From assembly GCA_963718515.1 (NCBI GenBank), contig OY970354.1:366942-430941 (forward strand): a stretch of DNA of 64,000 nt. The letters run 5' to 3'. Below, piece after piece: positions 14,489-60,781 of the stretch. The position numbers and the translations under genes are program-made. Each line of letters starts with the position of its first letter. Position 1 is the first letter of the stretch. The notes under the pieces are model-generated. The model was not told the origin of the DNA, did no database searches, and saw only the letters and a list, made by a program, of their open reading frames with translations. Source of the DNA: an uncultured bacterium (GTDB lineage: Bacteria > Patescibacteriota > Minisyncoccia > UBA6257 > 2-01-FULL-56-20).

Positions 14489-14493
14489 TCCCG

Positions 14494-16199: not shown

Positions 16200-16262
16200 C
16201 AAAATAATTCAAGAACGACAATTTAAAAATAAGGGTGGGTAGGGGATAGGGTAAATTGCTAT

Positions 16263-37987: not shown

Positions 37988-37991
37988 TTTG

Positions 37992-38062: not shown

Positions 38063-38149
38063 TCGCAGAACAGTAATCCGCCGCGCGAGCCTGACACTCA
38101 TTCTATATATATTGCCGCGCCTGCGTCAATCCGCTATAGTGGGGTGAAA

Positions 38150-38224
38150 GCCCTCGTAGTTCAATGGATAGAACAAATCCGTCCTAAGGATAAAATGGAA
38201 GTTCGATTCTCCCCGAGGGCACCA
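38150..38224 (+). tRNA. tRNA-Arg (anticodon CCT)
   Basis: Cloverleaf with anticodon loop GTCCTAA, TTCGATT T-loop and encoded CCA. One A·C mismatch in the T stem. Confidence 0.75.
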
Positions 38225-38296
38225 GCAAAAAGAAGGATGTTGTAAAGATAGGGCCGCAGTGCTACAGTAGTCGGCAGACCTTTTTAATTGAGCTAA

Positions 38297-38938: not shown

Positions 38939-38951
38939 GCCAAACGTTTTT

Positions 38952-38996
38952 CCCCTGCGGTGTACCTATCCACCGCAGGGGCTTTTCTTTTTTACG
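38952..38996 (+). terminator. rho-independent terminator
   Basis: 11-bp stem cccctgcggtg…caccgcagggg followed by cttttctttttt. Confidence 0.8.
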
Positions 38997-39074
38997 AGGG
39001 AAGAGTAGGGTAAAGGGAGTTGCTCTTCCTCCCCAAAGATCAAGGGCACAATTTCACCCCAAAGGAAATAAGAG

Positions 39075-39335
39075 ATGTCGAGCGTATCAGCGGTCATCAC
39101 TCACGGGATGGTTCCCTCCATCCAAGATCAACGCCCACCACTTTCAACCATCGTCCCCACAGAAGGGAACATCGACTGCACGGATTACGAAAACTTCGGC
39201 AGATTCATGGATCGTTTTCTTGCCCGCAAGTTGAGGCCGGCTCACGGGCGGGCAATGCACGTACATGTTAGTTGCTGTCCTGGCTGTCGTGCCTTCGAAA
39301 CCAAGCGTGCGAACAATGTCGCCAAACTCGACTGA
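39075..39335 (+). CDS. small Cys-containing hypothetical protein
   Basis: 86 aa with an AAAGGAAAT SD 8 nt upstream. Followed by a ggcgccgc…gcggcgcc hairpin. Confidence 0.4.
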   Translation: MSSVSAVITHGMVPSIQDQRPPLSTIVPTEGNIDCTDYENFGRFMDRFLARKLRPAHGRAMHVHVSCCPGCRAFETKRANNVAKLD

Positions 39336-39479
39336 CATCTCAATTCCCTAGCCACCCGGCGCCGCGTTTTTCCCCCTGGAATGCGGCGCCTTTAAAATTG
39401 CCTTTTTTAGTGTTTTCATCTTAACTATCAGGAGGGGAGAGTTGGCTAGTGGGTCTAACGCGCCGCACATATGCAAAGC

Positions 39480-39566
39480 GGAAAGGTGGCTGAGTGGTCG
39501 AAGGCGCCGCACTCGAAATGCGGTGTACTCGAAAGGGTACCGTGGGTTCGAATCCCACCCTTTCCG
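39480..39566 (+). tRNA. tRNA-Ser (anticodon CGA)
   Basis: Cloverleaf with anticodon loop CTCGAAA, long variable arm, TTCGAAT T-loop and no encoded CCA. Flanked by 13-nt leader/trailer complementarity. Confidence 0.85.
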
Positions 39567-39619
39567 CTTTGCATATGTAGATTTCTTCATGGCCTGCCTC
39601 TTAGGCAGGACATGCGGTT

Positions 39620-39660
39620 GGGGCGAAACCTCCTCACAGGTTCGAACCCTGTACTCTCCG
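39620..39660 (+). other. tRNA-like 3' fragment (T-arm ACAGGTTCGAACCCTGT + acceptor 3' strand), no complete cloverleaf found
   Basis: Canonical T-arm but no matching 5' acceptor, D or anticodon arm within 100 nt upstream. Possible att remnant. Confidence 0.45.
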
Positions 39661-39680
39661 CAGTCCGCCATGCGGACATT

Positions 39681-39756
39681 GCCACCTTAGCTCAGTTGGT
39701 AGAGCAGTGCTTTCGTAAAGCAAAGGTCCCCGGTTCAAATCCGGGAGGTGGCTCCA
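39681..39756 (+). tRNA. tRNA-Thr (anticodon CGT)
   Basis: 76-nt cloverleaf with anticodon loop TTCGTAA, TTCAAAT T-loop and encoded CCA. Confidence 0.85.
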
Positions 39757-43814: not shown

Positions 43815-43908
43815 GAAGGATTTTTTTTACTTGCTATACTTAGAAAGCGGGATGCTCTGTCGCGGGAGCTTGTTTTGGCGTAGATAATTTTTATCGATAT
43901 AGAAAATA

Positions 43909-45642
43909 ATGAAACGGTTTCTCAAAGTTCTAAAATTCATCGCCATAGGTTTCTTTTGCCTCCTTTTTATCCTCGTCCTTTTTCCGCTCAAAAATGGCAG
44001 TTCTTTAAAAAAGGCGAACGCCGATTCTCTTGATGCATATCCGAGCGTCTGTCTTGGGGGATGGCAAAATCCCGGCAATGCCGCCGGTACCCCGGATGTC
44101 CCTCCGGGCGGCGATTCGTTTACCGGCGACAACTCTGCCGTTCTCAGCCAGGCACAGGCGCAGATATTCTGCGGATCGTTCCAGGGGAGCGACGAATCGC
44201 AACCTCCATCCTCCGTCACACTTTATTTCTCATGGAATGTCATATTCCCCGACGAGACTTCGCAGGCCACGAGCACCGATCCGGATGATGCTTTGTGGAG
44301 CGAGGTGCTCGATACGACGAGTACCGCGTCGTCCACCCCCTCGTCGACGGTGAGCAACACGACAACCACGCCGGGTGTTGCATCGTCAACGCCTTCTTCG
44401 ACGCCGCCGGTTACGCCGCCGCCATCAACGCCAAAATCACCATCACCAACCAGCACTCCCGCGACCGTCACTTCCACAAGCTCGGCCGTTGTAGCCCCAA
44501 CCTCCACCCCGGCTTCCGCATCCACAACGCCACCCTCTGTTCCTGCCAGCACCACCGTCGGCACCCCGCCGCCGACAACCCCGCCTCCCGCGGCGCCCTC
44601 CTCCTCCTCGCCGGCTTCCAATGCGAGCGGCACTTCGTTCCTGCAGGATCTTATGGGCAACCCGCTCGGATTCCTTATAGAAAAAACATTTGCCGATTCA
44701 AGCGGTACTATCGCGAGCGGCACGCTTACCACCACCACTGCCAGTACGACCACGGTGAGCGATGCGCCAGGATCGTTCATTGATGTGAGTTATTCCCTTA
44801 ATGGAACCACGTGGCAGGATCTCGGGCAGGTGACCGAATCCGACTGGCAGGGCTTCTCCGTCACCATCCCGGTGAATTCATGGAGCGAGATTAATCAATT
44901 ACAAATACAGCTTAACCCGTTGATCACCACTGAGCCGCCCACCATCTACCTGGATGGGATGTGGTTGCAGGTGAATTATGGCCAGACACCGCTCGGACTT
45001 TTGGAAAGTGGCGCCACCGATGCGCTCAACGCGGTGGGGGACCTTAGCGATACCGTGGACAATGCACTGAACGATGCAACCGATGCCATCACAAATCTCT
45101 TGCCTACCAGCCCCACAAATCCCGCGCCGCAAACTTCGCCCGACACGAACACGCAGGCGGCCTCCGCCGCGCCACAGCCAAGCGTGCCACCTCCGCCCCA
45201 ATATACGTTACATATGAGCAGTACTTTTACGGTGAATACAAAAAATCTTTCATGGGTTCCCGAGGCGGCTACCTCGACCGCCACAATGACTCCTCCTACC
45301 TCACAGATCGGGGTTGTCCCTGTGGTGAGCGTGACGCCATCAGGCACCATCCAGGTCTCGGGGCCGTGCTTTGGAAATTATTATACGATTCTCATCTTCC
45401 GGAATCCGGGTGATTACAGCATGGATCCTGCTCTCGCACTCTTCAACGAGGCGAGCCCGTGCGTGAATAATAGTTTCAGCCAGACGATCGGGAATTATGA
45501 TCTCCCGCCACAGCTCGCGTCCGGCACGTATTATCTCATGATCGCAAACCAGGGAAAGCGCGGTCCGTGGCAACCTGATCCCACGGTGTATCCCATCGTC
45601 CTCGGCGTCGCACCCGCAACATCATCGCCATCATCAGAATGA
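43909..45642 (+). CDS. secreted S/T/P-rich protein with conserved C-terminal Cys-containing domain
   Basis: 577 aa. Signal/TM, long low-complexity T/S/P linker. C-terminal domain is paralogous to 49276..49791 (C..Y.T.L.F…YNEASPC…YYL.IA.QG..G.W). Confidence 0.6.
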   Translation: MKRFLKVLKFIAIGFFCLLFILVLFPLKNGSSLKKANADSLDAYPSVCLGGWQNPGNAAGTPDVPPGGDSFTGDNSAVLSQAQAQIFCGSFQGSDESQPPSSVTLYFSWNVIFPDETSQATSTDPDDALWSEVLDTTSTASSTPSSTVSNTTTTPGVASSTPSSTPPVTPPPSTPKSPSPTSTPATVTSTSSAVVAPTSTPASASTTPPSVPASTTVGTPPPTTPPPAAPSSSSPASNASGTSFLQDLMGNPLGFLIEKTFADSSGTIASGTLTTTTASTTTVSDAPGSFIDVSYSLNGTTWQDLGQVTESDWQGFSVTIPVNSWSEINQLQIQLNPLITTEPPTIYLDGMWLQVNYGQTPLGLLESGATDALNAVGDLSDTVDNALNDATDAITNLLPTSPTNPAPQTSPDTNTQAASAAPQPSVPPPPQYTLHMSSTFTVNTKNLSWVPEAATSTATMTPPTSQIGVVPVVSVTPSGTIQVSGPCFGNYYTILIFRNPGDYSMDPALALFNEASPCVNNSFSQTIGNYDLPPQLASGTYYLMIANQGKRGPWQPDPTVYPIVLGVAPATSSPSSE

Positions 45643-46271
45643 TAAAATCCCATTCCCTGCATAAAAGTAATATCGTCCTCGTCTTTAAGGAACATACCGT
45701 TCCGCCGCCTGAAAATCATGAGATCGTGGGCCTCTATGCCGGTGAGGCGGCCAAGGGAGCGCAGTTGGTGGATGATCCAATGATGCGCATGAAGATATTG
45801 GACGTTCCCGCGCGCGGTCTGCAGATCGCCTGGGAGGCGCGGCGTTTGCGCATCGAGGATATGCGCGCCGCCGAGCCGGAAGATTCACTTCTCGTCGATG
45901 AAATGGTGATGGCGTACGAGACGCTCGTCGCGCCGCGAAAGATATTTTTAGATTCATTCGGATTTAATTTTGAGGTGTACTTCCAGACGGTGGACGTGAT
46001 CCGCATCAACGATCATTTTAATGAGATATCGGGGACATTTCTTGATCTGGGCGCCGGGCTTATGGACTTTGGATGGCAATGGACGCTTGCCGAAAAGGAT
46101 GGCAAGACACTCCGTGGATATTTTCTCAAGGTGACGGCGCCGCTTGAGTTCACCATGCATCACAACGCGCATTTTTCCGCGAGGGAATTGCCGCCAAAGA
46201 AAGATATCCAAGCCATGTTCCGTGAGTCATATGCGCTTATGAACGCCACCGCCGCGCGGCTCAAATTATGA
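45639..46271 (+). CDS. hypothetical cytoplasmic protein
   Basis: 210 aa. ATGA overlap with the upstream gene. Confidence 0.45.
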   Translation: MIKSHSLHKSNIVLVFKEHTVPPPENHEIVGLYAGEAAKGAQLVDDPMMRMKILDVPARGLQIAWEARRLRIEDMRAAEPEDSLLVDEMVMAYETLVAPRKIFLDSFGFNFEVYFQTVDVIRINDHFNEISGTFLDLGAGLMDFGWQWTLAEKDGKTLRGYFLKVTAPLEFTMHHNAHFSARELPPKKDIQAMFRESYALMNATAARLKL

Positions 46272-46281
46272 TCACTGCATT

Positions 46282-48033
46282 ATGAGCTTATCCATCGATC
46301 CAAAAAATGGCGTTAAGCTAAAACCATCCCGGAAACCCGGGCGGGGGATTGCCGCGGTCATCATTGTACTTGAGGCCGTATTTTCCATCTTTCTTTATAT
46401 GTCCCTCGCCGAGCGCATTTTTGTGGTGGCACCTGCCGGCGCTGCGGCCGGCGTTCCCGATCTTGTTGCCTACCAGGGATTACTCACCGATACTTCGGGG
46501 AACCCTCTTGGCGGCGCGGGGTCGGTCTATTGCTTCCGTTATTCCATGTGGGATTCTCAAAGCGGTGGGAATCAAATATGGCCGCTCGCGGCACTTGGCG
46601 ATGCGTCTTCAACTCCCTCAAATTCCACCACCACCGTCACGGATGGCGTGTTCAGCGATGAGCTTGGTCGTACGGATACATTTGGGACACTTGATTTCGG
46701 GGCCGATACCACAGGAACCTCGACGTATTATTTGCAGGTGCAGGTCAGCACATCATCGCTCACCTGCGCTTCCGGCGTCGAAACGCTTTCTCCGCGCCAG
46801 CAGATCACGTCTGATGCGTGGTCGCAGACTGCCCAATCCGTCTACGGAAACCAACTTCGCACGCTTAATGCGACGAATATTGTGCAGGTCGGCACGGGTG
46901 GCGGCGTGACGGCCGGCAGTCAGACATTGCTCTCGCTCGACGTAGTGAATGTGTCTTCGAGCGAAAGCATCGGCGGGAGTTGTTCCCAAAACGGCACGCT
47001 GTGGTATGACTCTAGCCTTAAGCGCGCCCTTGTCTGCGAGAATTCCACCATCCAGCCGATCTCGAACGGTTCGACGAGCGTCACGAGCGTTGGCACGAGC
47101 GGCACGAGTACATTACTCTTTAATAACATTTTCCTTTCCGCGGTTGCGAATATCACTCTTAGCCAGACGGGGCAGACCATAAATATTTCCGCGCCGAACC
47201 CGGGCGCCGGATCGACGCTTTCGTACTGGGCGAATCTTCCCGACTTTCAGGGATCGACGGTGATGGGTTCCACGAGCGGGCAGTCGGTTGCCATTGCTCC
47301 GTTCGTTCTCCCTCAAGCCATCTCTGCTTCATATATACGTATTCCGGTGTCGGTATCTCTCTCTAGCGTCTCTGCGGTACAGGTGAATACAACCACCAAT
47401 TCATCCACCACATTTTCGATGGGACGTTACGAAACCGATGCATTTGTCCTCTATACCCAGAACGTCGGCGGGAACTCATTGTCCCTCGCATCCATTTTCT
47501 CTGGGTCGGCCACATGGAGCGCTCAAACCATTTACAGTGCCACGGGGACAGGCGTTAGTCTGTCGTCGTATAGCGTGTCAATCAACATAGGATATCCCGT
47601 CACGGGTAGTACAAGTAACTACGCGTCAACGTACACGCTTGCCAATTCGAGCTATGTGGTATGTACTGGCTCATTGACCAATTTTTCTGGCACGAGGTTT
47701 TTGGATATTCCTTTTGCGTCATCCCTTTCCGCAGGAGATTATTGGATCGGGTTGGGAAGAAGCACTTCGACTGCCGGAAACGCAGGCGCGGCATTGTCCG
47801 CCGCGAGTATCGGCTTGAGCGCCTGGGGAGTCAGCCAGCCCGCGATTTCGTTCGGCCTTATGGGGGTTGTGACGGCCTCGTCGACCGCTACCGCGCAGGT
47901 ACAGATCCAGCCGGGGCTTGGCTATGTGACGACGAACGTCAATATTATGAGTACGGCAAACGTCGCGCTCAGCAACATAACGAATGCCGCCAACAACCCC
48001 GAAATTTATTTCCAGTTTATCAGGGACAATTAA
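46282..48033 (+). CDS. large secreted/membrane-anchored hypothetical protein
   Basis: 583 aa. N-terminal TM and an S/T/G-rich beta-rich body. Confidence 0.55.
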   Translation: MSLSIDPKNGVKLKPSRKPGRGIAAVIIVLEAVFSIFLYMSLAERIFVVAPAGAAAGVPDLVAYQGLLTDTSGNPLGGAGSVYCFRYSMWDSQSGGNQIWPLAALGDASSTPSNSTTTVTDGVFSDELGRTDTFGTLDFGADTTGTSTYYLQVQVSTSSLTCASGVETLSPRQQITSDAWSQTAQSVYGNQLRTLNATNIVQVGTGGGVTAGSQTLLSLDVVNVSSSESIGGSCSQNGTLWYDSSLKRALVCENSTIQPISNGSTSVTSVGTSGTSTLLFNNIFLSAVANITLSQTGQTINISAPNPGAGSTLSYWANLPDFQGSTVMGSTSGQSVAIAPFVLPQAISASYIRIPVSVSLSSVSAVQVNTTTNSSTTFSMGRYETDAFVLYTQNVGGNSLSLASIFSGSATWSAQTIYSATGTGVSLSSYSVSINIGYPVTGSTSNYASTYTLANSSYVVCTGSLTNFSGTRFLDIPFASSLSAGDYWIGLGRSTSTAGNAGAALSAASIGLSAWGVSQPAISFGLMGVVTASSTATAQVQIQPGLGYVTTNVNIMSTANVALSNITNAANNPEIYFQFIRDN

Positions 48034-48034
48034 T

Positions 48035-48760
48035 ATGAAACCCCAGATCATCATTCCCAATTACGAAGGTGCGCATAACCGGGATCTCGAAAAATCCCAG
48101 GAGCGATTGCTACAGGCAAAAAGTTATCGAGACTTGTCCACGGTTATCGTTTGCCCGACCCGGGGGCAAGTTTCTGCCAAGGTAGTGCAATCATGGATGA
48201 GCCTTATGAAGCCAATGAACCAAAAGGTGATTGGGCCGTTGTTTGCGATCGGCATGGAAGTGGGGGATGCATATAACGCCATGGTCGAAATGATTATGGC
48301 GAGCCCGGAACTATCGACCTGGAAGTATGTGTTGACGATAGAGGAAGATAATATGCCGCCGCCGGACGGATTATTAAAACTTTATGAAGGCATGGATGAG
48401 TATGACGTGGTCGGCGGATTGTATTGGACGAAAGGTGAAGGTGGCCAGCCGATGATCTACGGCGATCCCGCTGTTGAACCGATGAATTTTATTCCGCAGG
48501 TGCCGCAAACCGAAGGTCTCCAGCCGGCGAACGGCCTCGGTATGGGATTTAATCTTTTTAAGATAGAAATATTCAAAAATCCAAACTTACCGCGCCCCTT
48601 TTTTAAAACATTGAATGAATTTGTGCCGGGCCAGGGTGCGCGTGGATACACGCAAGACCTTTATTTCTATGAGAACGCGGGGAAGCTTGGATACAAATTC
48701 GCGTGCGATACGCGCATCAAAGTGGGGCACTATGATGCCACGATGGACATTGTGTGGTAA
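48035..48760 (+). CDS. glycosyltransferase-like protein (GT-A fold candidate)
   Basis: Start at MKPQIIIP. …VIVCPTRGQ… and acidic EEDNMPPPDG motif resembling a nucleotide-sugar binding DxD region. Confidence 0.5.
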   Translation: MKPQIIIPNYEGAHNRDLEKSQERLLQAKSYRDLSTVIVCPTRGQVSAKVVQSWMSLMKPMNQKVIGPLFAIGMEVGDAYNAMVEMIMASPELSTWKYVLTIEEDNMPPPDGLLKLYEGMDEYDVVGGLYWTKGEGGQPMIYGDPAVEPMNFIPQVPQTEGLQPANGLGMGFNLFKIEIFKNPNLPRPFFKTLNEFVPGQGARGYTQDLYFYENAGKLGYKFACDTRIKVGHYDATMDIVW

Positions 48761-48769
48761 AACATATCT

Positions 48770-49279
48770 ATGAAACTCGACATCGCCTGCGGGCAAAATA
48801 AGCAGAAAGGATTTATGGGGGTCGACATCGCGCCGGGGCCGGGCGTCGATTTTGTGTGGGATCTCGAAAAATATCCCTGGGAGCCGTTCAAAGACCATTC
48901 CGTCACCGAGGTCTATGTGAGCCACTACGCCGAGCATACCAAAGATCTCATAGCGTTCATGAACGAGGTCTGGCGCATTTGCGAGAACGACGCGAAGGTG
49001 ACGATCGTGGGGCCGTATTACACCTCCATCCGCGCATGGCAGGATCCGACGCACACCCGCGCCCTCTCCGAGGCGACGTGGCTGTATTACAACAAAGGCT
49101 GGCGCGAAGCCAACAAGCTGGACCACTATCCCATCACCTGCGATTTTGGCGTTGATCGCATGACGGTGTTCTTCAACCCGCCGTGGGATAAGAAGACGGA
49201 GGAGGCGCGGCAGTTCGCGCAACAGCACTATTGGAACGTCATTTCCGATATTTGCGTTGAACTAAAAGTCATTAAATGA
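48770..49279 (+). CDS. small class I SAM-dependent methyltransferase-like protein
   Basis: LDIACGQNKQKGFMGVDI glycine-rich SAM motif I. Confidence 0.55.
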   Translation: MKLDIACGQNKQKGFMGVDIAPGPGVDFVWDLEKYPWEPFKDHSVTEVYVSHYAEHTKDLIAFMNEVWRICENDAKVTIVGPYYTSIRAWQDPTHTRALSEATWLYYNKGWREANKLDHYPITCDFGVDRMTVFFNPPWDKKTEEARQFAQQHYWNVISDICVELKVIK

Positions 49280-49791
49280 GGTTGCCGGGAGGGGACAATA
49301 GGGAATATCGGGTGCTCGCGATCGCCACCCTTTTTTTTCTGACGGGATTATTGTTTTTTTGGCTCGACCGGCCTCCCGCGTCGTCGCCATCCGCGCCTCC
49401 CGCTACCACCTCGCACACCCTTTCCGTGCAGTCGTCACAATCAGAAGGGGAGCAAGATCAGCAATATCTCGACCCCGATTTCGCAAAATTTCCGCCGCCC
49501 ACGCAATTTAAGACTGTCACCTATAACGCAAATGGTTTGAACGGATCCTCGACGCTCTTGGCCTCCGCAACGTGCAATGCCGCGTATATCACCGTTTTAT
49601 TATTCCCGGCCAAGATCGATTATCGCGGTGATATCAACGCCGCCGTTTACAACGAGGCGTCTCCCTGCCACTCCGACCAGCCGTTCACGCTCGTGATCGC
49701 CACGAGCGACATCGCAACCGCGCCATTCGGGAGTTATTATCTGATCATCGCCGACCAGGGGACGAGCGGCACATGGTATAATCCAAGATGA
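49276..49791 (+). CDS. membrane-anchored protein with paralogous C-terminal domain
   Basis: TM helix then a C-terminal domain paralogous to the C-terminus of 43909..45642. ATGA overlap upstream. Confidence 0.5.
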   Translation: MRLPGGDNREYRVLAIATLFFLTGLLFFWLDRPPASSPSAPPATTSHTLSVQSSQSEGEQDQQYLDPDFAKFPPPTQFKTVTYNANGLNGSSTLLASATCNAAYITVLLFPAKIDYRGDINAAVYNEASPCHSDQPFTLVIATSDIATAPFGSYYLIIADQGTSGTWYNPR

Positions 49792-50228
49792 GCATGAGAG
49801 AAATAAATTTTTCCGTTTTGAAGATCGCTCTCGCCGGTGCGGCCGTGATCGTTGTCATCGCCGCGCTATTTTTTAATATCAATAATCTCATCATGTGGGC
49901 AACGCTTAACGATCCGTTCCAGAATCAGTGGGCGGTGGTCCAGCTTTCGGATGGAGAGATCTTATATGGCCATCTCGCTGGCGTGAATGGGACGACGATC
50001 GGATTGAGCGATGTCTATCTCTTGGATAAGGTCGCGCCAGTGACGACAACGCCGATCGTTTCCACCTCCACCGACCTTACGATGGGGGCAACGCTGGGCG
50101 CGTCTGCTACCCAACAGCCGACACTCATTCCGGTCAGTGATACCCCGCAATTATTCATCAACCGCGCCGCCGTCCTCTATTTTAAATTTTTGACGCCCGA
50201 CGATCCCGCGTTCCCGTATCTTCATTAA
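49788..50228 (+). CDS. small membrane-anchored hypothetical protein
   Basis: 146 aa with N-terminal TM. ATGA overlap. Confidence 0.45.
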   Translation: MSMREINFSVLKIALAGAAVIVVIAALFFNINNLIMWATLNDPFQNQWAVVQLSDGEILYGHLAGVNGTTIGLSDVYLLDKVAPVTTTPIVSTSTDLTMGATLGASATQQPTLIPVSDTPQLFINRAAVLYFKFLTPDDPAFPYLH

Positions 50229-50276
50229 AATTTTCAAAAACATCGTCGGGCGAGTTGGTTTTCACTATCTGCGACC

Positions 50277-55043: not shown

Positions 55044-55110
55044 CGAACCATTAATCGAAGTTATCCCCAGAAAATATTTTGTCGAGTGGCGGGTGTGTTA
55101 CAATTGATTT

Positions 55111-55770
55111 ATGGATAATAAATGGTTTGGGACTTCGGTAAAGAAGTGGTGTGCCGTGTTTGCCTCGGTCGTTGCCGTTGTTGCGATATTCGCCGGCGCG
55201 CTCGGGCATATCCGCCTCGTGCATCAGGCTCAGGCGTCCACTACGACATCGACCACTCAGACGATAAACGTCACGGTGAACGAGACGATCACCCTTTCGC
55301 TTGCCAGTTCGACGCTGAGCCTCCCTGCCCTTACGCCGGGAATCGCAGTGACGGCGACCTCGAGCGCTACGGTCACGACGAACGCACCTTCCGGATTTCA
55401 GTTGGAAGTGAACCGCAATAGCGCAACGTCAACGATCGCTTCGGGCACCATAACGTTCCCCGACGCAACCGCATTCAGCGGAGCCAACGCAACCTCGGCG
55501 ACAAGTATTGGCGCGAATCTTAGCTTCCGCGAAAACGCAACCGGAACCAGTGTGGGCCTCTATAGTACTTCAACGTGGGGAACGAATGATGTCGATCCGA
55601 ATGCCTTGTATGCCGGCTTTCCGACTTCCCCCCAGATCTACGCAAGCACGAGCACATATGTCGGTTCTTCGCAGACTGTGGTGATGGAAGTGAGGGCTAA
55701 TGCTCCGGCGACCCAGCAGGCTACTGCGTATACCGGAACTATCACCGTTACGGCAATTGCGTTGCCGTAG
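55111..55770 (+). CDS. small secreted protein paralogous to giant-protein C-terminus
   Basis: 219 aa. N-terminal TM/signal. Shared motifs …LPALTPGI.V.AT…N.NSATSTIASGTI.FPD… and …A.YTGTITVTAIA.P with 50277..55043. Confidence 0.55.
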   Translation: MDNKWFGTSVKKWCAVFASVVAVVAIFAGALGHIRLVHQAQASTTTSTTQTINVTVNETITLSLASSTLSLPALTPGIAVTATSSATVTTNAPSGFQLEVNRNSATSTIASGTITFPDATAFSGANATSATSIGANLSFRENATGTSVGLYSTSTWGTNDVDPNALYAGFPTSPQIYASTSTYVGSSQTVVMEVRANAPATQQATAYTGTITVTAIALP

Positions 55771-55773
55771 GTT

Positions 55774-56694
55774 TTGTGCTTAAATCTATTTATGAAAAAG
55801 AATATCGCACTGTTTTCTTTTGCGGTCGTTGCGATTTTTTCTTCCCTCTTTTTATTCCCCGGCACAAGTCATGCGCAGGTCGGTATCTCCCTATTTCCAA
55901 TAAAATTTGACGTTACCGTTGCGCCAGGCCAGTCATATTCCGATACGGTTACCGTCATCAATCCCAACGATTTTCCGATCGGCGTCCAGCCGGAAGTTGA
56001 AAATATCGCCGGAGGCAATCAGGGATCGATCGATCTCGTCGACACGGATATTCCTCACGGCCTGTCCGCGTGGATATCCATCAACGAGACCGAGTTCACG
56101 CTCGCGCCTCAACAGCAATTGCAGGTACCTTTCACTATCAACGTGCCGCTTGATGGTGAGCCGGGCGGACATTATGGCGCAATCCTTTTCCGTGGCCTTC
56201 CGGCATCGTCGACGACGCCCGGCGTGGGCATTTCCGGCAGGGTGGGATCGGTCGTCCTTTTGAACGTTCCGGGTGATTCTTACGCGACGGGCAATGTTGC
56301 GAGCTTTGCAGGACCCGCGGCGTACGTTTCCCACGGCCCATTTACTTTTACCTTTACGGTCAACAATACTGGCAACACGCACTTTACCCCGACGGGCCAG
56401 GTCACATTAAGCGGGCCCTTGTTCGGTAACGCGACACTCCCGTTCAATTCAGGGATCGTGTTTCCGGGCTTTGATCGCACGTTCACCGCAAGCTGGCCCG
56501 GACGCTATGCATTCGGACCGATCACCGCAACGCTCTCCATCACGATACCGAACAACACGAGCACCATAGTCCAGACGATCACATTCTTTGCTTTCCCGTG
56601 GGAGGAGGCACTCGGCATACTGATCGTGCTTCTTGTTCTTTACTTTATCTTCAGGACTTGGAAGAAGAACTTCAAAATAGTGCGGGTAAAGTGA
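55774..56694 (+). CDS. cell-surface protein with C-terminal TM anchor and basic tail
   Basis: 306 aa. Signal peptide …TSHAQ, beta-rich ectodomain, C-terminal TM plus RTWKKNFKIVRVK. Confidence 0.55.
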   Translation: MCLNLFMKKNIALFSFAVVAIFSSLFLFPGTSHAQVGISLFPIKFDVTVAPGQSYSDTVTVINPNDFPIGVQPEVENIAGGNQGSIDLVDTDIPHGLSAWISINETEFTLAPQQQLQVPFTINVPLDGEPGGHYGAILFRGLPASSTTPGVGISGRVGSVVLLNVPGDSYATGNVASFAGPAAYVSHGPFTFTFTVNNTGNTHFTPTGQVTLSGPLFGNATLPFNSGIVFPGFDRTFTASWPGRYAFGPITATLSITIPNNTSTIVQTITFFAFPWEEALGILIVLLVLYFIFRTWKKNFKIVRVK

Positions 56695-56706
56695 TACAGT
56701 GAGAAG

Positions 56707-57915
56707 GTGAGAAAAGCCATCTCTTTCACTATATTTTTTATCGCACTGCTCGCGACCCTTGTTGTACACGCCCAGACTGTTAACAACGCCTTGCAGGTGC
56801 TCGTCACGGTGGTATATCCACCGGCGGCTCCGAACAGCCTTACTGCCACCACCACATCGAGCTCTCAAATAAATCTTTCCTGGGTGGCGTCCGGTACCGA
56901 TCAAACCGCTTTCTCCATAGAAGAGTCCGTGGGGAATGATTCTTTGTTTACGCCGATCGATACGGTGAGCGGTACCGCCACTACGTATTCACGCACCGGT
57001 CTCCTGCCGAGCACGACCTATTTTTATCGCGTGGCTGCGGTTAATGCGGCGGGAGAGAGCGGCTATTCGAACGAAGCCGCGGCGACTACACAGGCCAGTT
57101 CCGGTGGGGGTGGAGGTTCTGGTGGTGGTGGAGGCGGTGGAGGTGGTGGAGGCGGCGGTGCCGGAGGGTCAACCTACCAGCCGCCAGTTTTTCAAACATC
57201 CGCACAATTCACCGGCATCGCATATCCCTTGAGCACGATCACGCTTCTTGAGAACGGCCAGGTGGTTGCGACGACACAATCGGGCCCTGATGCAAAGTTT
57301 GAGATCGACCTTTCGGATATTGCTCCGGGGGCCTATAACTTTGGCGTGTGGGCAAAGGATCCGGAGGGGAACCAGTCGATCACACAGACGTTTTCCGTGA
57401 CGCTCACGGACGGCGCGGCGACGATAATCAGCGGCATCTTTTTTGCGCCGACGATCAGCGCGGACAAACTGCAAGTGAAGCGCGGGGATGTGCTGACGCT
57501 GCTTGGTTACACCGCGCCTGCCGCGACGGTCACTGTGGTCGTGAATTCCACGAACGAGGTCACGCAGGAGGTGACCTCCACCGGTGCCGGCGCGTGGGTA
57601 TACGCGTTGAACACGGACCAGTTGGAATATGGCGGTCATACGGCGCATGCGTGGGCGGCGGCGGACGGGAGTGTGACGGCGGATTCGGACCTTGTGGCAT
57701 TCACCGTCGGGAATAGCGACGTTGCCGCGCCGCCGGTCAAGGCGTGTCCGGTCAAGGGAGATCTGAACGGCGACTGCAAGGTAAATCTCGTGGATTTTTC
57801 CATCTTGGCGTATTGGTGGCAGAAGCCGAATCCACCACCTGCATATCTGTTGGACGGGGGATCGACGGTCGATCTGGCGGATTTCAGCATCCTTGCGTAT
57901 TATTGGACCGGCTGA
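56707..57915 (+). CDS. secreted FN3/Ig-like protein with poly-Gly linker and C-terminal dockerin-like domain
   Basis: GTG start. FN3-like (…TTYFYRVAAVNAAGESGYS), ~30-aa Gly run, two dockerin-type Ca-binding repeats GDLNGDCKVNLVDFSILAYWW and DGGSTVDLADFSILAYYW. Confidence 0.65.
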   Translation: MRKAISFTIFFIALLATLVVHAQTVNNALQVLVTVVYPPAAPNSLTATTTSSSQINLSWVASGTDQTAFSIEESVGNDSLFTPIDTVSGTATTYSRTGLLPSTTYFYRVAAVNAAGESGYSNEAAATTQASSGGGGGSGGGGGGGGGGGGGAGGSTYQPPVFQTSAQFTGIAYPLSTITLLENGQVVATTQSGPDAKFEIDLSDIAPGAYNFGVWAKDPEGNQSITQTFSVTLTDGAATIISGIFFAPTISADKLQVKRGDVLTLLGYTAPAATVTVVVNSTNEVTQEVTSTGAGAWVYALNTDQLEYGGHTAHAWAAADGSVTADSDLVAFTVGNSDVAAPPVKACPVKGDLNGDCKVNLVDFSILAYWWQKPNPPPAYLLDGGSTVDLADFSILAYYWTG

Positions 57916-57916
57916 T

Positions 57917-58825
57917 ATGAAGAAAACAATATACATTTTTATATTGATGTCTGGCGCGGCGCTCTTGTTCCCGTGGCGCTCGTTCGCCGCGGTGCTCACC
58001 GTTGCGCCGTCTGCGGGAAATCCCGGGATGGTCACGATCAGCCTTGATACCCAGGGACAGACCGTGAACGCCGTCGAGGCCCACTTCTCGTTCGACACAA
58101 GCCTGTTTGCCATCGGCAGTGTGGACACGGCAGGATCCATCATTAATTTGTGGGTCAGTGGTCCGACCTTTTCGAACGCGTCCGGCACGCTTGACCTTGC
58201 AGGCATCATCCCGGGTGGCGAGACGACGGCCGATGGTGTGATCGCCACGATCGCGATCGTTCCCAAAGAGCCCGGTGTTGCAACCAGCTTTACGCTCGAT
58301 TCGGCACAGGCGCTTTTGAACGACGGGCAGGGGACGCCCGCCGCACTTTCCGTCGTGAGTGATCCATTTGCGACTGGCGTCACAATGGGCGGACAGACCG
58401 CCGTGAGCACGCAGGCGCCGAATGCCTTCACACCGGAGATCGGCCAGGATCCCAACATATTCAGCGGGCAATATTTTATTGTATTCGCAACGACCGACCA
58501 GGGGTCGAGCATCGACCATTATGACGTGCTTGAGGTTCCGGCGGGAACGAAGGTCACGAGTTCTTCGGTATGGACGATCGCCACTTCGCCATATCGTTTG
58601 AATGACCAAACGCTCTCGAGCGATATCTATGTCCGCGCCGTCGATTCAGCGGGCAATTTCCGCGTGGAAGAGCTCCCCGCCACGCAAAAATCCTCAAAAA
58701 CAGACAAGACATTGGATGATGTAGAGGTTCTGCTCGGGGCGATAGTGGTATTATTGATAATGGGCGGAATCATACGACGTATCCGGAAATGGAAACGAAG
58801 AAAGCGATCACGAGACTCTGGTTGA
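57917..58825 (+). CDS. membrane-anchored cohesin-like domain protein
   Basis: ATG at 57917 gives signal peptide MKKTIYIFILMSGAALLF…AAV. Cohesin-like beta-sandwich pattern (…VTISLDTQGQTVNAVEAHFSFDTSLFAIGSVDTAGSII…). C-terminal TM plus KR-rich tail. Confidence 0.6.
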   Translation: MKKTIYIFILMSGAALLFPWRSFAAVLTVAPSAGNPGMVTISLDTQGQTVNAVEAHFSFDTSLFAIGSVDTAGSIINLWVSGPTFSNASGTLDLAGIIPGGETTADGVIATIAIVPKEPGVATSFTLDSAQALLNDGQGTPAALSVVSDPFATGVTMGGQTAVSTQAPNAFTPEIGQDPNIFSGQYFIVFATTDQGSSIDHYDVLEVPAGTKVTSSSVWTIATSPYRLNDQTLSSDIYVRAVDSAGNFRVEELPATQKSSKTDKTLDDVEVLLGAIVVLLIMGGIIRRIRKWKRRKRSRDSG

Positions 58826-60237
58826 TCCTTGGCACGGTTGCCGTGCTTGCGGGCATTTTTGGCACGCACAGCGCTTTCGCGGCGACACTTTCTTTTTCCC
58901 CGCAATCCGGGACATATTTTTCGGGGCGGAGCTTTAGCGTCTCGGTCGTCGTCTCTTCGCCCAACCAGGCGATGAATGCCGTGCAGGCGGAGATATCGTT
59001 CCCGCCAGCCGAGCTTGAAGTGCTCTCCGTCTCTGAAACCAATTCCATCATCAACCTCTGGGTGCAGAATCCGACGTTCTCGAACCAGGACGGCACGATC
59101 GATTTCGGCGGCGTCGCCGTGAGTCCGGGATTCCAGGGGAATAACGGGAACATCGTAACGATACAATTCGAGGCGAAGAACACCGGGAGTGCTCCGCTAT
59201 CATTCATCTCTGGTTCTGTCCTTGCGAACGACGGGAAGGGGACGAACATCCTTAGTTCAATGGGGAGTGCAAACTTTATCATCACGCCGCTTTCCCCCAC
59301 ATCCGAGTCCACAAGCCCTGTTCCCGGATCGATCATCGTCAATTCCAATCCACCGATTGCGTCGGGAACATGGTACAACATCAATCAGATCACGTTTGAT
59401 TGGAGCGTTCCCACGAATGCGGAAGGGGTTGATTACAGCATCTCCACCAATCCGAACTTTCAGCTTCCGGACGTGAACCAGGGGCTCGTTTCTCAGGCAA
59501 CGTATGATCTCTCAAATCTTTCCGACGGGGCATGGCATTTCTTTGTAAGCTTCAATAATGGCAGTGCGTGGTCGCCGCCAGCGTCGGAGGAGCTTCTGCT
59601 CGACCGGACGCCGCCCCAGCCGTTCATCATCACCCGGGAGGATACGAACCAGACGGATAACCAGCCGGTTTTTGCGTGGGTGGCGAATGACGCGGCGTCG
59701 GGCATCGACCATTATGAGGTGAAGATCGGCGATGGCGATTGGTTCGACGCTTCGACCATCCAGAATGGGAGCTCATCGTACATATTACCGCCGCAGTCTC
59801 CGACGAACGCGCGAACGCTTACCGTCCGAGCCTTCGATAAGGCGGGGAATTACACCGATGCCACGACGAATTTTACCGTCCTCGCCCCAGCCGTGCTCTG
59901 CAAAGGCAACGGCTTTTCGTGTTCGATATCGCTCTTCTTTGCGCAGTGGGGAGCGCTCATTTCCTCGATATTCATCTTCCTTGTGCTTGTGTTGTACGGC
60001 TTCCTTTATTACCTTTTGCGGTGGAGGAAGCAATCACGCAAAGATCTTCAGAAATTCAAGGAAGAATTACAGCAGGATCTCAAGCGGGTGGAGGCGGGTG
60101 TCAAAAAGGTGACCGGCACCGAGGTTGACCTGCGGCAATCGTACTTCCTGGAAGAAAAGCGGTCGCTCGAAAAACAACTTCGCCATATCACGGATGATGT
60201 GAAAGAGGAATTAAAGCGCCTCCAAGACGATAAATAG
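58789..60237 (+). CDS. membrane-anchored cohesin-like domain protein (paralog) with cytoplasmic coiled-coil tail
   Basis: Signal peptide METKKAITRLWLILGTVAVLAGIFGTHSAFA. Cohesin-like domain (…MNAVQAEISFPPAELEVLSVSETNSIINLWV…). TM then charged coiled-coil tail. 37-nt overlap with the upstream gene. Confidence 0.6.
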   Translation: METKKAITRLWLILGTVAVLAGIFGTHSAFAATLSFSPQSGTYFSGRSFSVSVVVSSPNQAMNAVQAEISFPPAELEVLSVSETNSIINLWVQNPTFSNQDGTIDFGGVAVSPGFQGNNGNIVTIQFEAKNTGSAPLSFISGSVLANDGKGTNILSSMGSANFIITPLSPTSESTSPVPGSIIVNSNPPIASGTWYNINQITFDWSVPTNAEGVDYSISTNPNFQLPDVNQGLVSQATYDLSNLSDGAWHFFVSFNNGSAWSPPASEELLLDRTPPQPFIITREDTNQTDNQPVFAWVANDAASGIDHYEVKIGDGDWFDASTIQNGSSSYILPPQSPTNARTLTVRAFDKAGNYTDATTNFTVLAPAVLCKGNGFSCSISLFFAQWGALISSIFIFLVLVLYGFLYYLLRWRKQSRKDLQKFKEELQQDLKRVEAGVKKVTGTEVDLRQSYFLEEKRSLEKQLRHITDDVKEELKRLQDDK

Positions 60238-60238
60238 C

Positions 60239-60781
60239 ATGACATTCAATGCCCAAACATTTCTATGGGGGGCGATAGGTGTCGCATTTTTTGCGATCGT
60301 CTTTTTGATTGCATTCATTGCCCACGAAGCATCCGAGAACAGGCGATTGAAGGTCCAACAGACGGAAGCGGCACAAAAACAACAAGCACCTGCGGCGTCA
60401 CAATCAAAAAAAGATCCCGCCGCGCCGGATAGCATGGATGGGGGAGGGGTTTACTCATATAGTTCGATCGTTATGGATGAAGTACTGGGGGAAAAGATCA
60501 TCGAAGGCTTAAAAGAATCCCTGCGCATGACCGAAGAACTCTATACAAAACTTTCCGAACAATATAAGGACAACCGCGACAAGCGTATAGAACTCGCGAG
60601 CGATTGGCTCAATTACCTCGAGGCCATCGACAACATCAAGCAAGCGCGCATTGATTACCGCATGAACAGCACCGACGGCGAATCATTACGGACAGATAAA
60701 GAAAGCGCGCGCATCAAGCTGGAGATCGAGAACAAGTTCAAGAATCTCGAGCAGGCGATTCCAACGCCAGGAGGGGGATAG
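60239..60781 (+). CDS. membrane-anchored hypothetical protein
   Basis: 180 aa. N-terminal TM and charged helical C-terminus. ATG overlaps the upstream TAG. Confidence 0.45.
   Translation: MTFNAQTFLWGAIGVAFFAIVFLIAFIAHEASENRRLKVQQTEAAQKQQAPAASQSKKDPAAPDSMDGGGVYSYSSIVMDEVLGEKIIEGLKESLRMTEELYTKLSEQYKDNRDKRIELASDWLNYLEAIDNIKQARIDYRMNSTDGESLRTDKESARIKLEIENKFKNLEQAIPTPGGG

What the first reader, a model, noticed from the sequence alone, without database searches (positions are those of the whole stretch)
43909..60781. 16.9-kb co-directional array of 14 secreted or surface protein genes with frequent start/stop overlaps
All genes from 43909 to 60781 are on the plus strand with short or overlapping junctions (ATGA at 45639, 49276, 49788; overlaps at 58789 and 60239). 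Almost all products have signal peptides or TM anchors.

Such a dense, apparently co-transcribed surface-proteome island is notable. It combines glycosylation enzymes, a giant propeller protein, paralogous small secreted domains and a cohesin-dockerin set. It may be a lineage-specific cell-surface organelle or attachment locus.
Basis: inference. Interest (0 to 1): 0.6.

Follow-up and report, generated by a model that had tools for sequence, protein, structure and literature searches.

The report
Conserved cell-surface display gene cluster in Patescibacteria
This is a real, conserved gene cluster of an ultra-small (CPR/Patescibacteria) bacterium that probably holds a large, variable adhesin on the cell surface without covalent links, using a relative of the Gram-positive WxL-interacting protein plus a cohesin-dockerin set; it is a candidate host-attachment apparatus that has not been described.

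Summary
The 14 plus-strand genes are real, and 11 of 14 products have an N-terminal hydrophobic segment (Fisher p about 9e-4 against the rest of the window). Co-directionality itself is not special: the plus-strand run continues into prfB-ftsEX-CAP upstream and the atp operon downstream. One claimed overlap (60239) is a 1-nt gap. Base composition matches housekeeping genes, so this is not an acquired island.

Genes g1-g13 keep the same order in 9 species-level Patescibacteria genomes, in at least two flanking contexts. g14 is unique to this genome.

There are two separable modules:
- **Module B (g8-g13):** a 1588-aa adhesin with a 7-blade beta-propeller that ends in a 170-aa domain; a small protein made only of that domain; a membrane-anchored WxLIP (DUF916) homologue; a dockerin protein; and two membrane-anchored cohesin proteins.
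- **Module A (g1-g7):** Ser/Thr/Pro-rich anchored proteins, a GT-A glycosyltransferase, a methyltransferase and an unknown cytoplasmic protein.

Module B has the architecture of Firmicutes WxL clusters. However, its anchor domain is an unannotated family (691 cluster representatives) that is not detectably a WxL domain. The linked cohesin-dockerin trio is not a listed component of WxL clusters. Verdict: new variant of a known kind; the mechanism is inferred, not shown.

The parts
43909..45642 (+). g1: 577-aa envelope protein. N-terminal hydrophobic segment, long Ser/Thr/Pro-rich region, and a C-terminal ~80-aa two-Cys domain shared with g6.
   Evidence: g1 478-554 ~ g6 91-167, 40% identity, E 4e-11; no Pfam, NCBIfam or PHROG hit; orthologues at 30-53% in the same position.
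45639..46271 (+). g2: 210-aa cytoplasmic protein of unknown function. Length and position are conserved.
   Evidence: No hydrophobic segment; no family or PDB hit; orthologues at 45-80%.
46282..48033 (+). g3: 583-aa N-terminally anchored Ser/Thr-rich protein. The ~340-aa N-terminal domain is conserved and the C-terminal half is variable.
   Evidence: no PDB or Pfam hit.
48035..48760 (+). g4: 241-aa soluble GT-A-fold glycosyltransferase from a very large unannotated Patescibacteria family.
   Evidence: AF2 pLDDT 84; 85 PDB matches at E<=1e-3, the listed top 50 almost all glycosyltransferases, best STIV A197 at 1.9e-9; invariant E103-x-D105; PHROG glycosyltransferase 2.7e-5; 4743 homologues, none with Pfam among the 120 listed.
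48770..49279 (+). g5: 169-aa SAM-dependent methyltransferase.
   Evidence: PHROG methyltransferase 8.8e-7; Pfam Methyltransf_11 weak, 0.003; orthologues at 63-90%.
49276..49791 (+). g6: 171-aa N-terminally anchored protein. A Ser/Pro linker is followed by a C-terminal domain paralogous to the g1 C-terminus.
49788..50228 (+). g7: 146-aa N-terminally anchored small protein of unknown function.
   Evidence: orthologues in L002 and L007.
50277..55043 (+). g8: 1588-aa secreted large protein, the proposed variable adhesin.
- Signal peptide.
- N-terminal region.
- Core at residues 467-741, shared with short orthologues.
- Tandem 151-aa duplication (711-860 and 861-1030).
- 7-blade PknD/NHL-type beta-propeller (about 1056-1360).
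- C-terminal 170-aa anchor domain (1418-1588).
   Evidence: the C-terminal domain is 51% identical to g9; orthologues are only 398-689 aa, or 2985 aa in L026.
55111..55770 (+). g9: 219-aa secreted small protein that consists only of the anchor domain (a new family).
   Evidence: 691 representatives; small proteins, or large ones with the domain C-terminal; no Pfam, NCBIfam or PDB sequence hit; AF2 pLDDT 82, with weak fold matches to chaperone-usher pilins and TasA.
55792..56694 (+). g10: 300-aa WxLIP (DUF916) homologue. Signal peptide, two Ig-like domains, C-terminal TM helix and a basic tail (KKNFKIVRVK).
   Evidence: PF06030 at 32 bits against a cutoff of 27.3, hit in 17/17 family members; the family profile hits solved EfmWxLIP1 (9i25_C, 9i1y_A) at E 4e-4; it also hits Firmicutes WxLIPs over both domains.
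56707..57915 (+). g11: 402-aa secreted protein. fn3, Gly-rich linker, Big_6 and Ig domains, and a C-terminal dockerin.
   Evidence: the dockerin is the only invariant part in 6 orthologues; Dockerin_1 in 6/6, best E 6.8e-4.
57917..58825 (+). g12: 302-aa cohesin-domain protein with a signal peptide, a C-terminal TM helix and a basic tail.
   Evidence: Pfam Cohesin weak, 0.006; paralogous to g13 over the cohesin, E 2e-15.
58789..60237 (+). g13: 482-aa cohesin-domain protein. Signal peptide, cohesin, Ig-like domains, TM helix and a ~70-aa charged cytoplasmic tail. Its start overlaps g12 by 37 nt.
   Evidence: Pfam Cohesin 7.8e-7, 29.8 bits against a cutoff of 24.1; orthologues carry PF00963; the g12/g13 overlap of 22-37 nt is conserved.
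60239..60781 (+). g14: 180-aa protein with an N-terminal TM helix and a charged tail that is probably cytoplasmic. It is specific to this genome and not part of the conserved cluster.
   Evidence: no homologue in any of 13 related loci; no family hit.

Best explanation
The region is a native, vertically inherited surface-protein gene cluster of a Paceibacterota-type Patescibacterium. It is built from two separable modules.

**Module B (g8-g13, 50277-60237): a non-covalent surface-display system**
- All six proteins are exported by Sec.
- g10, g12 and g13 stay in the cytoplasmic membrane through C-terminal TM helices.
- g10 is a WxLIP homologue. Its first Ig-like domain captures the 170-aa C-terminal 'anchor' domain, which is present alone in g9 and at the end of the large protein g8. 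This retains g8 on the cell.
- In the same way, g11 is held by its C-terminal dockerin on the cohesins of g12 and g13.
- g8 carries a fast-evolving passenger region. Here that region includes a duplicated 151-aa module and a 7-blade propeller, and it is the likely ligand- or host-binding part.

**Module A (g1-g7, 43909-50228)**
- It encodes four N-terminally anchored Ser/Thr/Pro-rich envelope proteins and three cytoplasmic proteins: a GT-A glycosyltransferase, a SAM methyltransferase and the unknown g2.
- These probably make or modify (glycosylate, methylate) envelope components.

**Shown and inferred**
- Shown: gene content, domain identities, conservation and co-location.
- Inferred: all protein-protein contacts, surface location, glycosylation targets and a role in host attachment.
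For: - **Conservation as a unit:** g1-g13 are in identical order in L018-L024, L027 and L028, and in the contig-truncated L025 and L029. The CAP/atpB flanks occur only in the three closest relatives.
- **Core cassette:** g9-g10-dockerin-cohesin-cohesin is present in 20 of the 21 loci whose g10 is at least 38% identical. In L028 the dockerin was found only by tblastn and a single cohesin by HMM. dockerin plus cohesin also lies within 10 kb of g10 in 6 more distant lineages.
- **g10 is a WxLIP homologue:** PF06030 scores above its gathering cutoff and hits 17/17 members. The profile hits solved EfmWxLIP1 and Firmicutes WxLIPs across both domains.
- **Anchor-domain family:** it is bimodal. Members are either about 200-260 aa, or large (up to 3773 aa) with the domain at the extreme C-terminus. 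Published WxL clusters show the same small/large arrangement (PMC9772566, PMC10599100).
- **Precedent for the contact:** a WxL-WxLIP complex has been solved (9i25 chains A and C).
- **Dockerin and cohesin:** the dockerin is the only invariant part of g11 orthologues. The cohesin is significant in g13 and its orthologues.
- **Topology:** signal peptides and C-terminal TM helices.
- **g4 GT-A fold:**
- **Propeller:**
- **Native composition:**
Against: - No direct evidence exists for any interaction, for surface exposure or for co-transcription.
- The anchor domain is not demonstrably a WxL domain. PF13731 was hit in 0 of 43 members. hhalign against true WxL proteins gave probability 0.4% and aligned only the last 25 columns. 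The profile hit no PDB chain.
- The Pfam model for the second WxLIP domain (WxLIP_HBD) was not hit.
- The g11 dockerin and the g12 cohesin are below Pfam cutoffs in the window proteins.
- Modules A and B occur apart in some genomes, so a shared function is unproven.
- g4 is cytoplasmic, so it cannot act on proteins after they are exported.
- No LPXTG protein is present.
Confidence: 0.6

Rival explanations
1. **Fibre or pilus model.** g9 is a polymerising subunit that assembles by donor-strand exchange. g10 is a membrane-anchored PapD-like chaperone or assembly platform. g8 is the tip adhesin, joined through its C-terminal pilin-like domain. This would be an usher-less, monoderm counterpart of chaperone-usher pili.
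For: - The g9 model's best PDB matches are donor-strand fibre subunits: CfaB, CsuA/B, the PapG and FimH pilin domains, FimG and TasA.
- Nine of 43 family members give weak DUF4402 hits and one gives Adhesin_Dr.
- UniRef names Deinococcus homologues of g10 'P pilus assembly protein, chaperone PapD'.
- Small proteins carry a conserved N-terminal QTINVTV segment that AF2 leaves unpaired. This segment is missing from g8 and its closest large relatives, as expected for a tip subunit.
- The split into a small subunit and a large C-terminal-domain protein parallels FimA/FimH.
Against: - All fold matches are weak (E >= 3e-3, TM 0.3-0.4).
- More distant large proteins do carry an equivalent N-terminal strand.
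- There is no usher or sortase.
- The papers read on WxL clusters do not report polymerisation; they describe the proteins as wall-bound.
- A hairpin after g9 that could raise subunit stoichiometry is not conserved.
Confidence: 0.2
2. **No single machine.** The array is two or three functionally unrelated operons (g1-g7/8, g8/9-g13, g14). They lie side by side only because this streamlined genome is strongly strand-biased and tightly packed.
For: - Modules occur separately. L011 has g1-g8 only. L003, L005, L006, L026 and L030-L038 have g9-g13 without g1-g7.
- g14 is absent from all relatives.
- The longest gaps (48 and 67 nt) flank g8.
- The co-directional run includes housekeeping genes on both sides.
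Against: - The A+B order is kept in 9 species-level genomes at 30-60% identity for the surface proteins, and across a change of flanking genes. This is unusual for unrelated neighbours.
- The short form of g8 bridges the modules. It travels with module A in L011 but carries the module B anchor domain.
Confidence: 0.3
3. **Cellulosome-like complex for polysaccharide breakdown.** This was originally proposed for Lactobacillus Csc/WxL clusters, and cohesin-dockerin pairs suggest it.
For: - Cohesin and dockerin modules are present.
- Siezen et al. 2006 proposed carbohydrate use for Csc clusters (PMC1534035, listed).
Against: - No glycoside hydrolase, polysaccharide lyase or carbohydrate-binding module was found in any of the 14 proteins.
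- The only dockerin sits on an Ig/fn3 protein, and in L005 on a bare linker.
- Only one dockerin protein is present per locus.
Confidence: 0.05
4. **Recently acquired genomic island**, as the first reader suggested might show in GC content or codon usage.
For: The content is rich in fast-evolving surface proteins, and g14 and the g8 expansions are strain-specific.
Against: - GC and GC3 equal those of housekeeping genes, whereas a true mobile element in the same window is 8 points lower in GC.
- There are no integrase, transposase or tRNA boundaries at the ends of the array.
- The position is syntenic in the three closest genomes.
Confidence: 0.03

Closest known systems
WxL (Csc) surface-protein clusters of Lactobacillales, Listeria and Enterococcus: small WxL + large WxL + WxLIP (DUF916-DUF3324-TM) +/- an LPXTG protein (PMC9772566, PMC10599100, PMC1534035)
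   Same: - g10 is a sequence homologue of WxLIP, with a signal peptide, two Ig-like domains and a C-terminal TM helix.
- It sits directly next to one small secreted protein made of a single ~170-aa domain and one large multi-domain protein that ends in the same domain.
- The large protein carries variable, adhesin-like passenger domains.
- All the proteins are secreted.
   Different: - The shared domain is not a detectable WxL domain. PF13731 is not hit, hhalign is negative, and the D-x-R-G...GWxL and TWxL motifs are not conserved.
- There is no LPXTG protein.
- The cassette is fixed to a dockerin protein and two cohesin proteins. The papers read do not list these as components of WxL clusters.
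- The host lineage is Patescibacteria. More than 91% of known WxL sequences are from Firmicutes.
Cohesin-dockerin scaffolds (cellulosomes and non-cellulosomal cohesin-dockerin pairs)
   Same: A secreted protein with a C-terminal duplicated Ca-loop dockerin is encoded next to cell-anchored cohesin proteins.
   Different: - No enzymes are attached.
- There is a single dockerin per locus.
- The cohesin proteins are anchored by a C-terminal TM helix rather than by SLH domains or sortase.
- The set is always coupled to a WxLIP-type cassette.
Chaperone-usher pili (including archaic Csu) and TasA fibres
   Same: - There is weak fold-level resemblance between g9 and donor-strand subunits.
- The partner (g10) has two Ig domains.
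- The adhesin carries a C-terminal subunit-like domain.
   Different: - There is no usher and no outer membrane.
- There is no significant sequence or profile match.
- Polymerisation is not shown.
Cytoplasmic glycosylation of Ser/Thr-rich surface proteins (for example Gtf enzymes of serine-rich-repeat adhesins) and wall-polymer GT-A enzymes (TarP, RmlT)
   Same: A soluble GT-A enzyme is encoded among Ser/Thr-rich envelope proteins. TarP and RmlT are among the fold matches.
   Different: - There is no accessory Sec system.
- The substrate is unknown.
- The g4 family has no Pfam or NCBIfam model.
- The link to the neighbouring proteins rests only on gene proximity.

Membership tests
WxL cluster (definition of Hassan et al. 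2023: adjacent genes with at least 1 WxLIP and at least 2 WxL proteins) | At least one WxLIP with a DUF916/PGBD domain | tested here: met
   g10 scores 32 bits on PF06030 against a cutoff of 27.3. 17/17 family members hit it. The profile hits solved EfmWxLIP1 at E 4e-4.
WxL cluster | WxLIP carries a second domain (DUF3324/HBD) followed by a TM helix | tested here: inconclusive
   No Pfam model for the second WxLIP domain (DUF3324/HBD) was hit in any of 17 members. The g10 family HMM does align to Firmicutes WxLIPs over positions 6-266/297 of 303. A C-terminal TM helix is present.
WxL cluster | Two or more adjacent proteins with a WxL domain (PF13731, two WxL motifs) | tested here: not met
   0 of 43 g9-family members hit PF13731 at E<=10, whereas 8 of 9 control WxL proteins hit it. 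hhalign of the g9 family against WxL gave probability 0.4% and E 0.14. The g9-family HMM finds nothing in the Firmicutes loci.
WxL cluster | One small protein made only of the domain and one large protein with the domain at the extreme C-terminus | tested here: met
   This holds for the substitute domain: g9 (219 aa) and g8 (domain at 1418-1588 of 1588). It holds family-wide.
WxL cluster | LPXTG-anchored small protein (frequent, not essential) | tested here: not met
   No LPXTG-like signal lies within the last 60 residues before a TM helix in any of the 14 proteins.
WxL cluster | Binding to peptidoglycan and to WxLIP | not testable with these tools
   This needs biochemistry or multimer prediction.
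Cohesin-dockerin system | Cohesin domain (PF00963) | tested here: met
   g13 scores 29.8 bits against a cutoff of 24.1. Orthologues carry PF00963. g12 is below the cutoff (17.2 bits) but is paralogous to g13, E 2e-15.
Cohesin-dockerin system | Dockerin: duplicated ~22-residue Ca-binding loop plus helix | tested here: inconclusive
   g11 scores 13.4 bits on PF00404 against a cutoff of 22.9. Dockerin_1 is the only family hit in 6/6 orthologues, best E 6.8e-4. The duplicated D-x-N-x-D...D segments are invariant.
Cohesin-dockerin system | Physical Ca-dependent cohesin-dockerin binding | not testable with these tools
   No tool was available for this.
Chaperone-usher pilus | PapD-type chaperone, usher and donor-strand pilins | tested here: not met
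   No PapD or usher Pfam hit was found. Pilin fold matches are only weak. The organism belongs to a lineage proposed to lack an outer membrane (as cited in preprint 10.1101/2025.01.22.634366).
GT-A glycosyltransferase (g4) | GT-A Rossmann-like fold with an acidic DXD-type metal and nucleotide-sugar motif | tested here: met
   Foldseek gave 85 PDB matches at E<=1e-3, the listed top 50 almost all glycosyltransferases. E103, E104 and D105 are invariant in 28 sequences. Activity and substrate were not tested.
NHL/PknD-type beta-propeller (g8) | Six to eight ~40-aa blades | tested here: met
   Pizza designer proteins at E 1e-29, virginiamycin B lyase at 1.5e-16 and PknD at 3.6e-14. Seven AFDG motifs occur about 40 aa apart.

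The most novel reading that the evidence does not exclude
g9 and g10 form an usher-less chaperone-subunit fibre system in a bacterium without an outer membrane. Under this reading:
- g9 polymerises by donor-strand exchange, using its conserved N-terminal QTINVTV strand.
- g10 acts as a membrane-bound PapD-like chaperone or assembly platform.
- Giant proteins such as g8 cap the fibre through their C-terminal subunit-like domain.
- The cohesin-dockerin trio forms the base.

This would link WxL clusters, chaperone-usher pili and a new class of Patescibacteria attachment fibre.
Probability: 0.15. Interest if true: 0.85.

Novelty: new variant of a known kind. Interest (0 to 1): 0.55.

Why it matters
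**The open question.** All cultivated Patescibacteria live attached to other microbes. How they hold and vary their adhesins is largely unknown beyond type IV pili.

**What this cluster offers:**
- A conserved, widespread cassette: a WxLIP homologue, a new C-terminal anchor domain, and a cohesin-dockerin set.
- A sequence tag for finding candidate surface adhesins. The anchor domain has 691 cluster representatives, in proteins of up to 3773 aa.
- Binary interactions that can be tested directly in vitro.

**Wider reach.**
- It extends the WxLIP-based display principle well outside Firmicutes.
- It shows that the partner domain can be replaced.
- It flags a very large, highly conserved and unannotated GT-A family (g4).

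Tried and rejected
- **g9 as a WxL domain:** I fetched true WxL proteins from Firmicutes plasmids and confirmed them with Pfam. The profile-profile comparison was negative. Only the C-terminal 'xP...Y.G.IT.T..xP' motif aligns.
- **g9 profile against PDB sequences:** no hit.
- **Foldseek of the g9 model against the PDB:** only weak matches, and the solved WxL chain 9i25_A was not among the top 50.
- **Terminator-like hairpin at the g9 stop (55748-55770):** not conserved in 5 relatives, so I dropped it as evidence for subunit over-expression.
- **Promoter and terminator scan:** counts were not above shuffled sequence. A hairpin at 43854-43869 and a promoter-like site at 43881-43910 before g1 remain only a hint.
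- **g2 and g3 profiles against the PDB:** nothing found. Both remain of unknown function.
- **Link to type IV secretion:** g4-g5 lie near VirB4-like and VirD4-like genes in L010 and L011. I judged this coincidental, because the T4SS is near-universal and chromosomal in the CPR (preprint 10.1101/2025.01.22.634366) and is absent from the window locus.
- **Genomic island:** rejected on composition.
- **Polysaccharide-degrading cellulosome:** rejected because no catalytic domains are present.
- **Antisense ORF 57169-58512 (447 aa):** treated as spurious. It is Arg-rich and overlaps g11 and g12, which have domain support.
- **Literature:** no paper held in the library links WxL or DUF916 with Patescibacteria, and no top-listed paper links dockerins with Patescibacteria lineages.

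Full report
**1. Observation**

ORF listing and translation show 14 plus-strand genes tiling 43909-60781. I call them g1-g14.

The junctions, computed, are -4, 10, 1, 9, -4, -4, 48, 67, 21, 12, 1, -37 and 1 nt.
- The three ATGA overlaps (45639, 49276, 49788) and the overlap at 58789 are real.
- The '60239 overlap' is a 1-nt gap.
- The likely starts of g4, g10 and g12 are 48035, 55792 and 57917.

Eleven of the 14 products have an N-terminal hydrophobic segment. g1 and g8-g13 have A-x-A-type cleavage sites. g3, g6, g7 and g14 look like signal anchors. g2, g4 and g5 are cytoplasmic. Against a rough gene call of the rest of the window this is enriched, at 10/13 against 13/52, Fisher p = 9e-4.

Co-directionality is not informative on its own. 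prfB, ftsE, ftsX and a CAP/YkwD protein upstream, and atpB and atpF downstream, are on the same strand.

GC and GC3 of the array (0.542/0.638) equal those of housekeeping genes (0.544/0.668). A mobile element at 3-17.6 kb in the same window has 0.462/0.472. The array is therefore native, not an island.

No Rfam family lies in the region.

**2. Source organism**

The exact proteins occur on one 829,201-bp contig. The closest relatives are Candidatus Paceibacterota and Minisyncoccia MAGs. The window therefore comes from a Patescibacteria (CPR) genome.

**3. What the genes encode**

*Module A (g1-g7)*
- g1, g3, g6 and g7 are N-terminally anchored. g1, g3 and g6 are also Ser/Thr/Pro-rich. None has a family hit.
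- The C-terminal domain of g1 is paralogous to that of g6.
- g2 (210 aa, cytoplasmic) has no hit anywhere.
- g4 has no Pfam or NCBIfam hit. Its AlphaFold model (pLDDT 84) gives 85 PDB matches at E<=1e-3. The listed top 50 are almost all glycosyltransferases: STIV A197, LH3, ColGalT1, RmlT, TarP and ppGalNAc-transferases.
- E103-E104-D105 of g4 are invariant.
- The g4 family has 4743 homologues. The listed top 120 are 68-100% identical to g4, every named one is a Patescibacterium, and none has a Pfam annotation.
- g5 is a small SAM methyltransferase.

*Module B (g8-g13)*
- g8 (1588 aa) has a signal peptide and a core at residues 467-741 that is shared with short orthologues.
- It also has a recent 151-aa tandem duplication at 72-80% identity.
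- It carries a 7-blade PknD/NHL-type propeller.
- Its C-terminal 170-aa domain is 51% identical to the whole mature g9.
- g10 is a WxLIP homologue. PF06030 scores above its cutoff and hits 17/17 family members. The profile hits solved EfmWxLIP1, and a custom HMM aligns to Firmicutes WxLIPs across both Ig domains. A C-terminal TM helix and a basic tail are present.
- g11 has fn3, Big_6 and Ig domains and ends in a duplicated D-x-N-x-D...D module.
- That module is the only invariant part in six orthologues and the only Pfam family shared by all six (Dockerin_1).
- g12 and g13 are paralogous cohesin proteins with C-terminal TM helices.

*g14* is a small membrane protein with no homologue in related loci.

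**4. The g9-type domain is a new family**

- A profile search of 1.84 billion representatives found 691 proteins at E<=1e-3.
- They are either about 200-260 aa, with the domain directly after the signal peptide, or large (300-3773 aa) with the domain at the extreme C-terminus.
- No member hits Pfam WxL, and the profile hits no PDB sequence.
- I fetched genuine WxL proteins from Enterococcus, Listeria and Lactococcus plasmid loci and verified them with Pfam.
- hhalign between the two families gave probability 0.4%, aligning only the last 25 columns.
- The AF2 model of g9 (pLDDT 82) gives only weak PDB matches. These are consistently to donor-strand fibre subunits: CfaB, CsuA/B, the PapG and FimH pilin domains, and TasA.

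**5.

*Neighbourhoods of homologues*
- The closest relative has ftsX-CAP-g1...g13-atpB in the same order.
- A more distant genome keeps g1-g13 with four inserted genes and different flanks (Sod_Ni, gyrB).
- Magasanikbacteria and other lineages keep only g9-g10-g11-g12-g13. They add a second, divergently oriented g9-like gene and a giant protein of more than 3800 aa.

*Scan of one genome per species (80 loci), mapped with HMMs and tblastn*
- The full g1-g13 order is present in 9 species representatives, plus 2 loci cut by contig ends.
- g9-g10-dockerin-cohesin-cohesin is present in 20 of the 21 loci where g10 is at least 38% identical. In L028 the dockerin was found only by tblastn and a single cohesin by HMM.
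- dockerin plus cohesin lies within 10 kb of g10 in 6 more distant lineages.
- Enzymes and g10 are well conserved: g4 at 37-83%, g5 at 63-90%, g10 at 41-84%.
- Surface proteins diverge fast: g1 at 30-53% and g12 at 26-66%.
- The length of g8 ranges from 398 to 2985 aa.
- Module A together with a short g8 occurs without module B in L011.
- The g12/g13 gene overlap of 22-37 nt is conserved.

**6. Interpretation**

The triad of a large protein ending in domain X, a small protein made only of X, and a WxLIP matches the published definition and logic of WxL clusters. In those clusters WxLIP is proposed to bind and stabilise WxL through a beta-strand insertion. A WxL-WxLIP complex is deposited as 9i25.

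I therefore propose that g10 retains g9 and g8 at the membrane surface through their shared domain. I also propose that g12 and g13 retain g11 through cohesin-dockerin binding. Together they would give a non-covalent display platform for a fast-evolving adhesin.

Module A probably supplies or modifies envelope components. The evidence is a GT-A enzyme, a methyltransferase and Ser/Thr-rich anchored proteins. This rests on proximity and conserved order only.

All contacts, the surface location and the host-attachment role are inferences.

**7. Rivals**

- **Fibre model.** It is suggested by the pilin-like fold matches, by the 'PapD chaperone' names on Deinococcus homologues of g10, and by a conserved N-terminal QTINVTV strand. 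That strand is unpaired in the model and missing from g8-type large proteins. The evidence is weak, and more distant large proteins contradict it in part.
- **'Two unrelated operons'.** This stays plausible because the modules can be separated.
- **Cellulosome-like polysaccharide degradation.** It lacks any catalytic domain.
- **Acquired island.** Composition and synteny exclude it.

**8. Novelty**

No paper in the searchable library links WxL or DUF916 with Patescibacteria, and no top-listed paper links dockerins with Patescibacteria lineages. The system is best filed as a new variant of the WxL-cluster kind:
- the scaffold protein is homologous;
- the partner domain has been replaced by an unannotated family;
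- a cohesin-dockerin trio has been added;
- the host lineage is different.

Noticed in passing
window 3000-17600: Low-GC (0.44-0.47) mobile element. It contains a Bro-N protein (7344-8183), a Mutator-family transposase (8288-9388), zinc-ribbon proteins, a trypsin-like protein (10432-12297), a TnsA-like protein, ParB (13610-14488), a serine recombinase (14494-15840) and a tyrosine integrase (16444-17532).
   Followed up: partly
window 9503-9623 (+): Strong match to the Rfam LOOT RNA (RF03000, 91 bits against a gathering score of 46). It lies just downstream of the Mutator transposase, inside the mobile element, and overlaps the start of the zinc-ribbon/SHOCT ORF.
   Followed up: no
window 48035-48760 (g4): The g4 family is very large (4743 homologues). 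The listed top 120 are 68-100% identical to g4. All named members are Patescibacteria, and there is no Pfam or NCBIfam model. It is a GT-A glycosyltransferase by fold.
   Followed up: partly
window 52407-54360 (g8 residues 711-1360): There are signs of recent expansion: a 151-aa tandem duplication at 72-80% identity and seven propeller blades 50-72% identical to each other. Orthologues in close relatives are only 398-689 aa and lack both features.
   Followed up: partly
window 60239-60781 (g14): This small membrane protein has a charged coiled-coil-like tail. It has no homologue in any of 13 related loci, including the three closest, where atpB follows g13 directly.
   Followed up: partly
L004 3311-3955 (same genome, outside the window): A second g9 paralogue (P0003, 74% identical) is encoded elsewhere on the same 829-kb contig. 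It lies next to a lamin-tail-domain protein and a 5'-3' exonuclease, with no g10 beside it in the 4-kb contig seen.
   Followed up: no
L003 14464-18328; L006 1669-5540: In Magasanikbacteria the g9-g13 cassette is followed directly by a 321-aa protein, a T2SSE/PilB-type ATPase and a 382-aa protein. A giant protein of more than 3800 aa sits on the other side. This may indicate a link to type IV pilus genes.
   Followed up: no
L010 3881-8617; L011 11312-13264: In other lineages g4 and g5 lie near type IV secretion genes (TraC-like, VirB4-like ATPase, T4SS pilin, VirD4/TrwB-like). A class-A beta-lactamase-like gene is repeatedly inserted within module A, next to g4.
   Followed up: partly
window 56590-56694 (g10 C-terminus): A conserved 'FPW(Q/E)E' motif lies just before the TM helix, and the cytoplasmic tail 'KKxFKIVRV' is conserved across Patescibacteria g10 homologues. 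This arrangement (motif, TM helix, basic tail) resembles a sorting signal.
   Followed up: no
L039-L096 (distant g10 homologues): In many distant Patescibacteria loci the g10-like gene is present as 2-3 tandem copies, with no detectable g9-type domain nearby. The partner domain may have diverged again.
   Followed up: no
window 57169-58512 (-): A 447-aa antisense ORF overlaps g11 and g12. It is Arg-rich and low in complexity, and is most likely a non-coding by-product of the GC-rich sense frame.
   Followed up: no
window 37900-39756: A cluster of five tRNA genes (Ser-tga, Ala-ggc, Arg-cct, Ser-cga, Thr-cgt) lies at the point where the gene strand switches from minus to plus.
   Followed up: no
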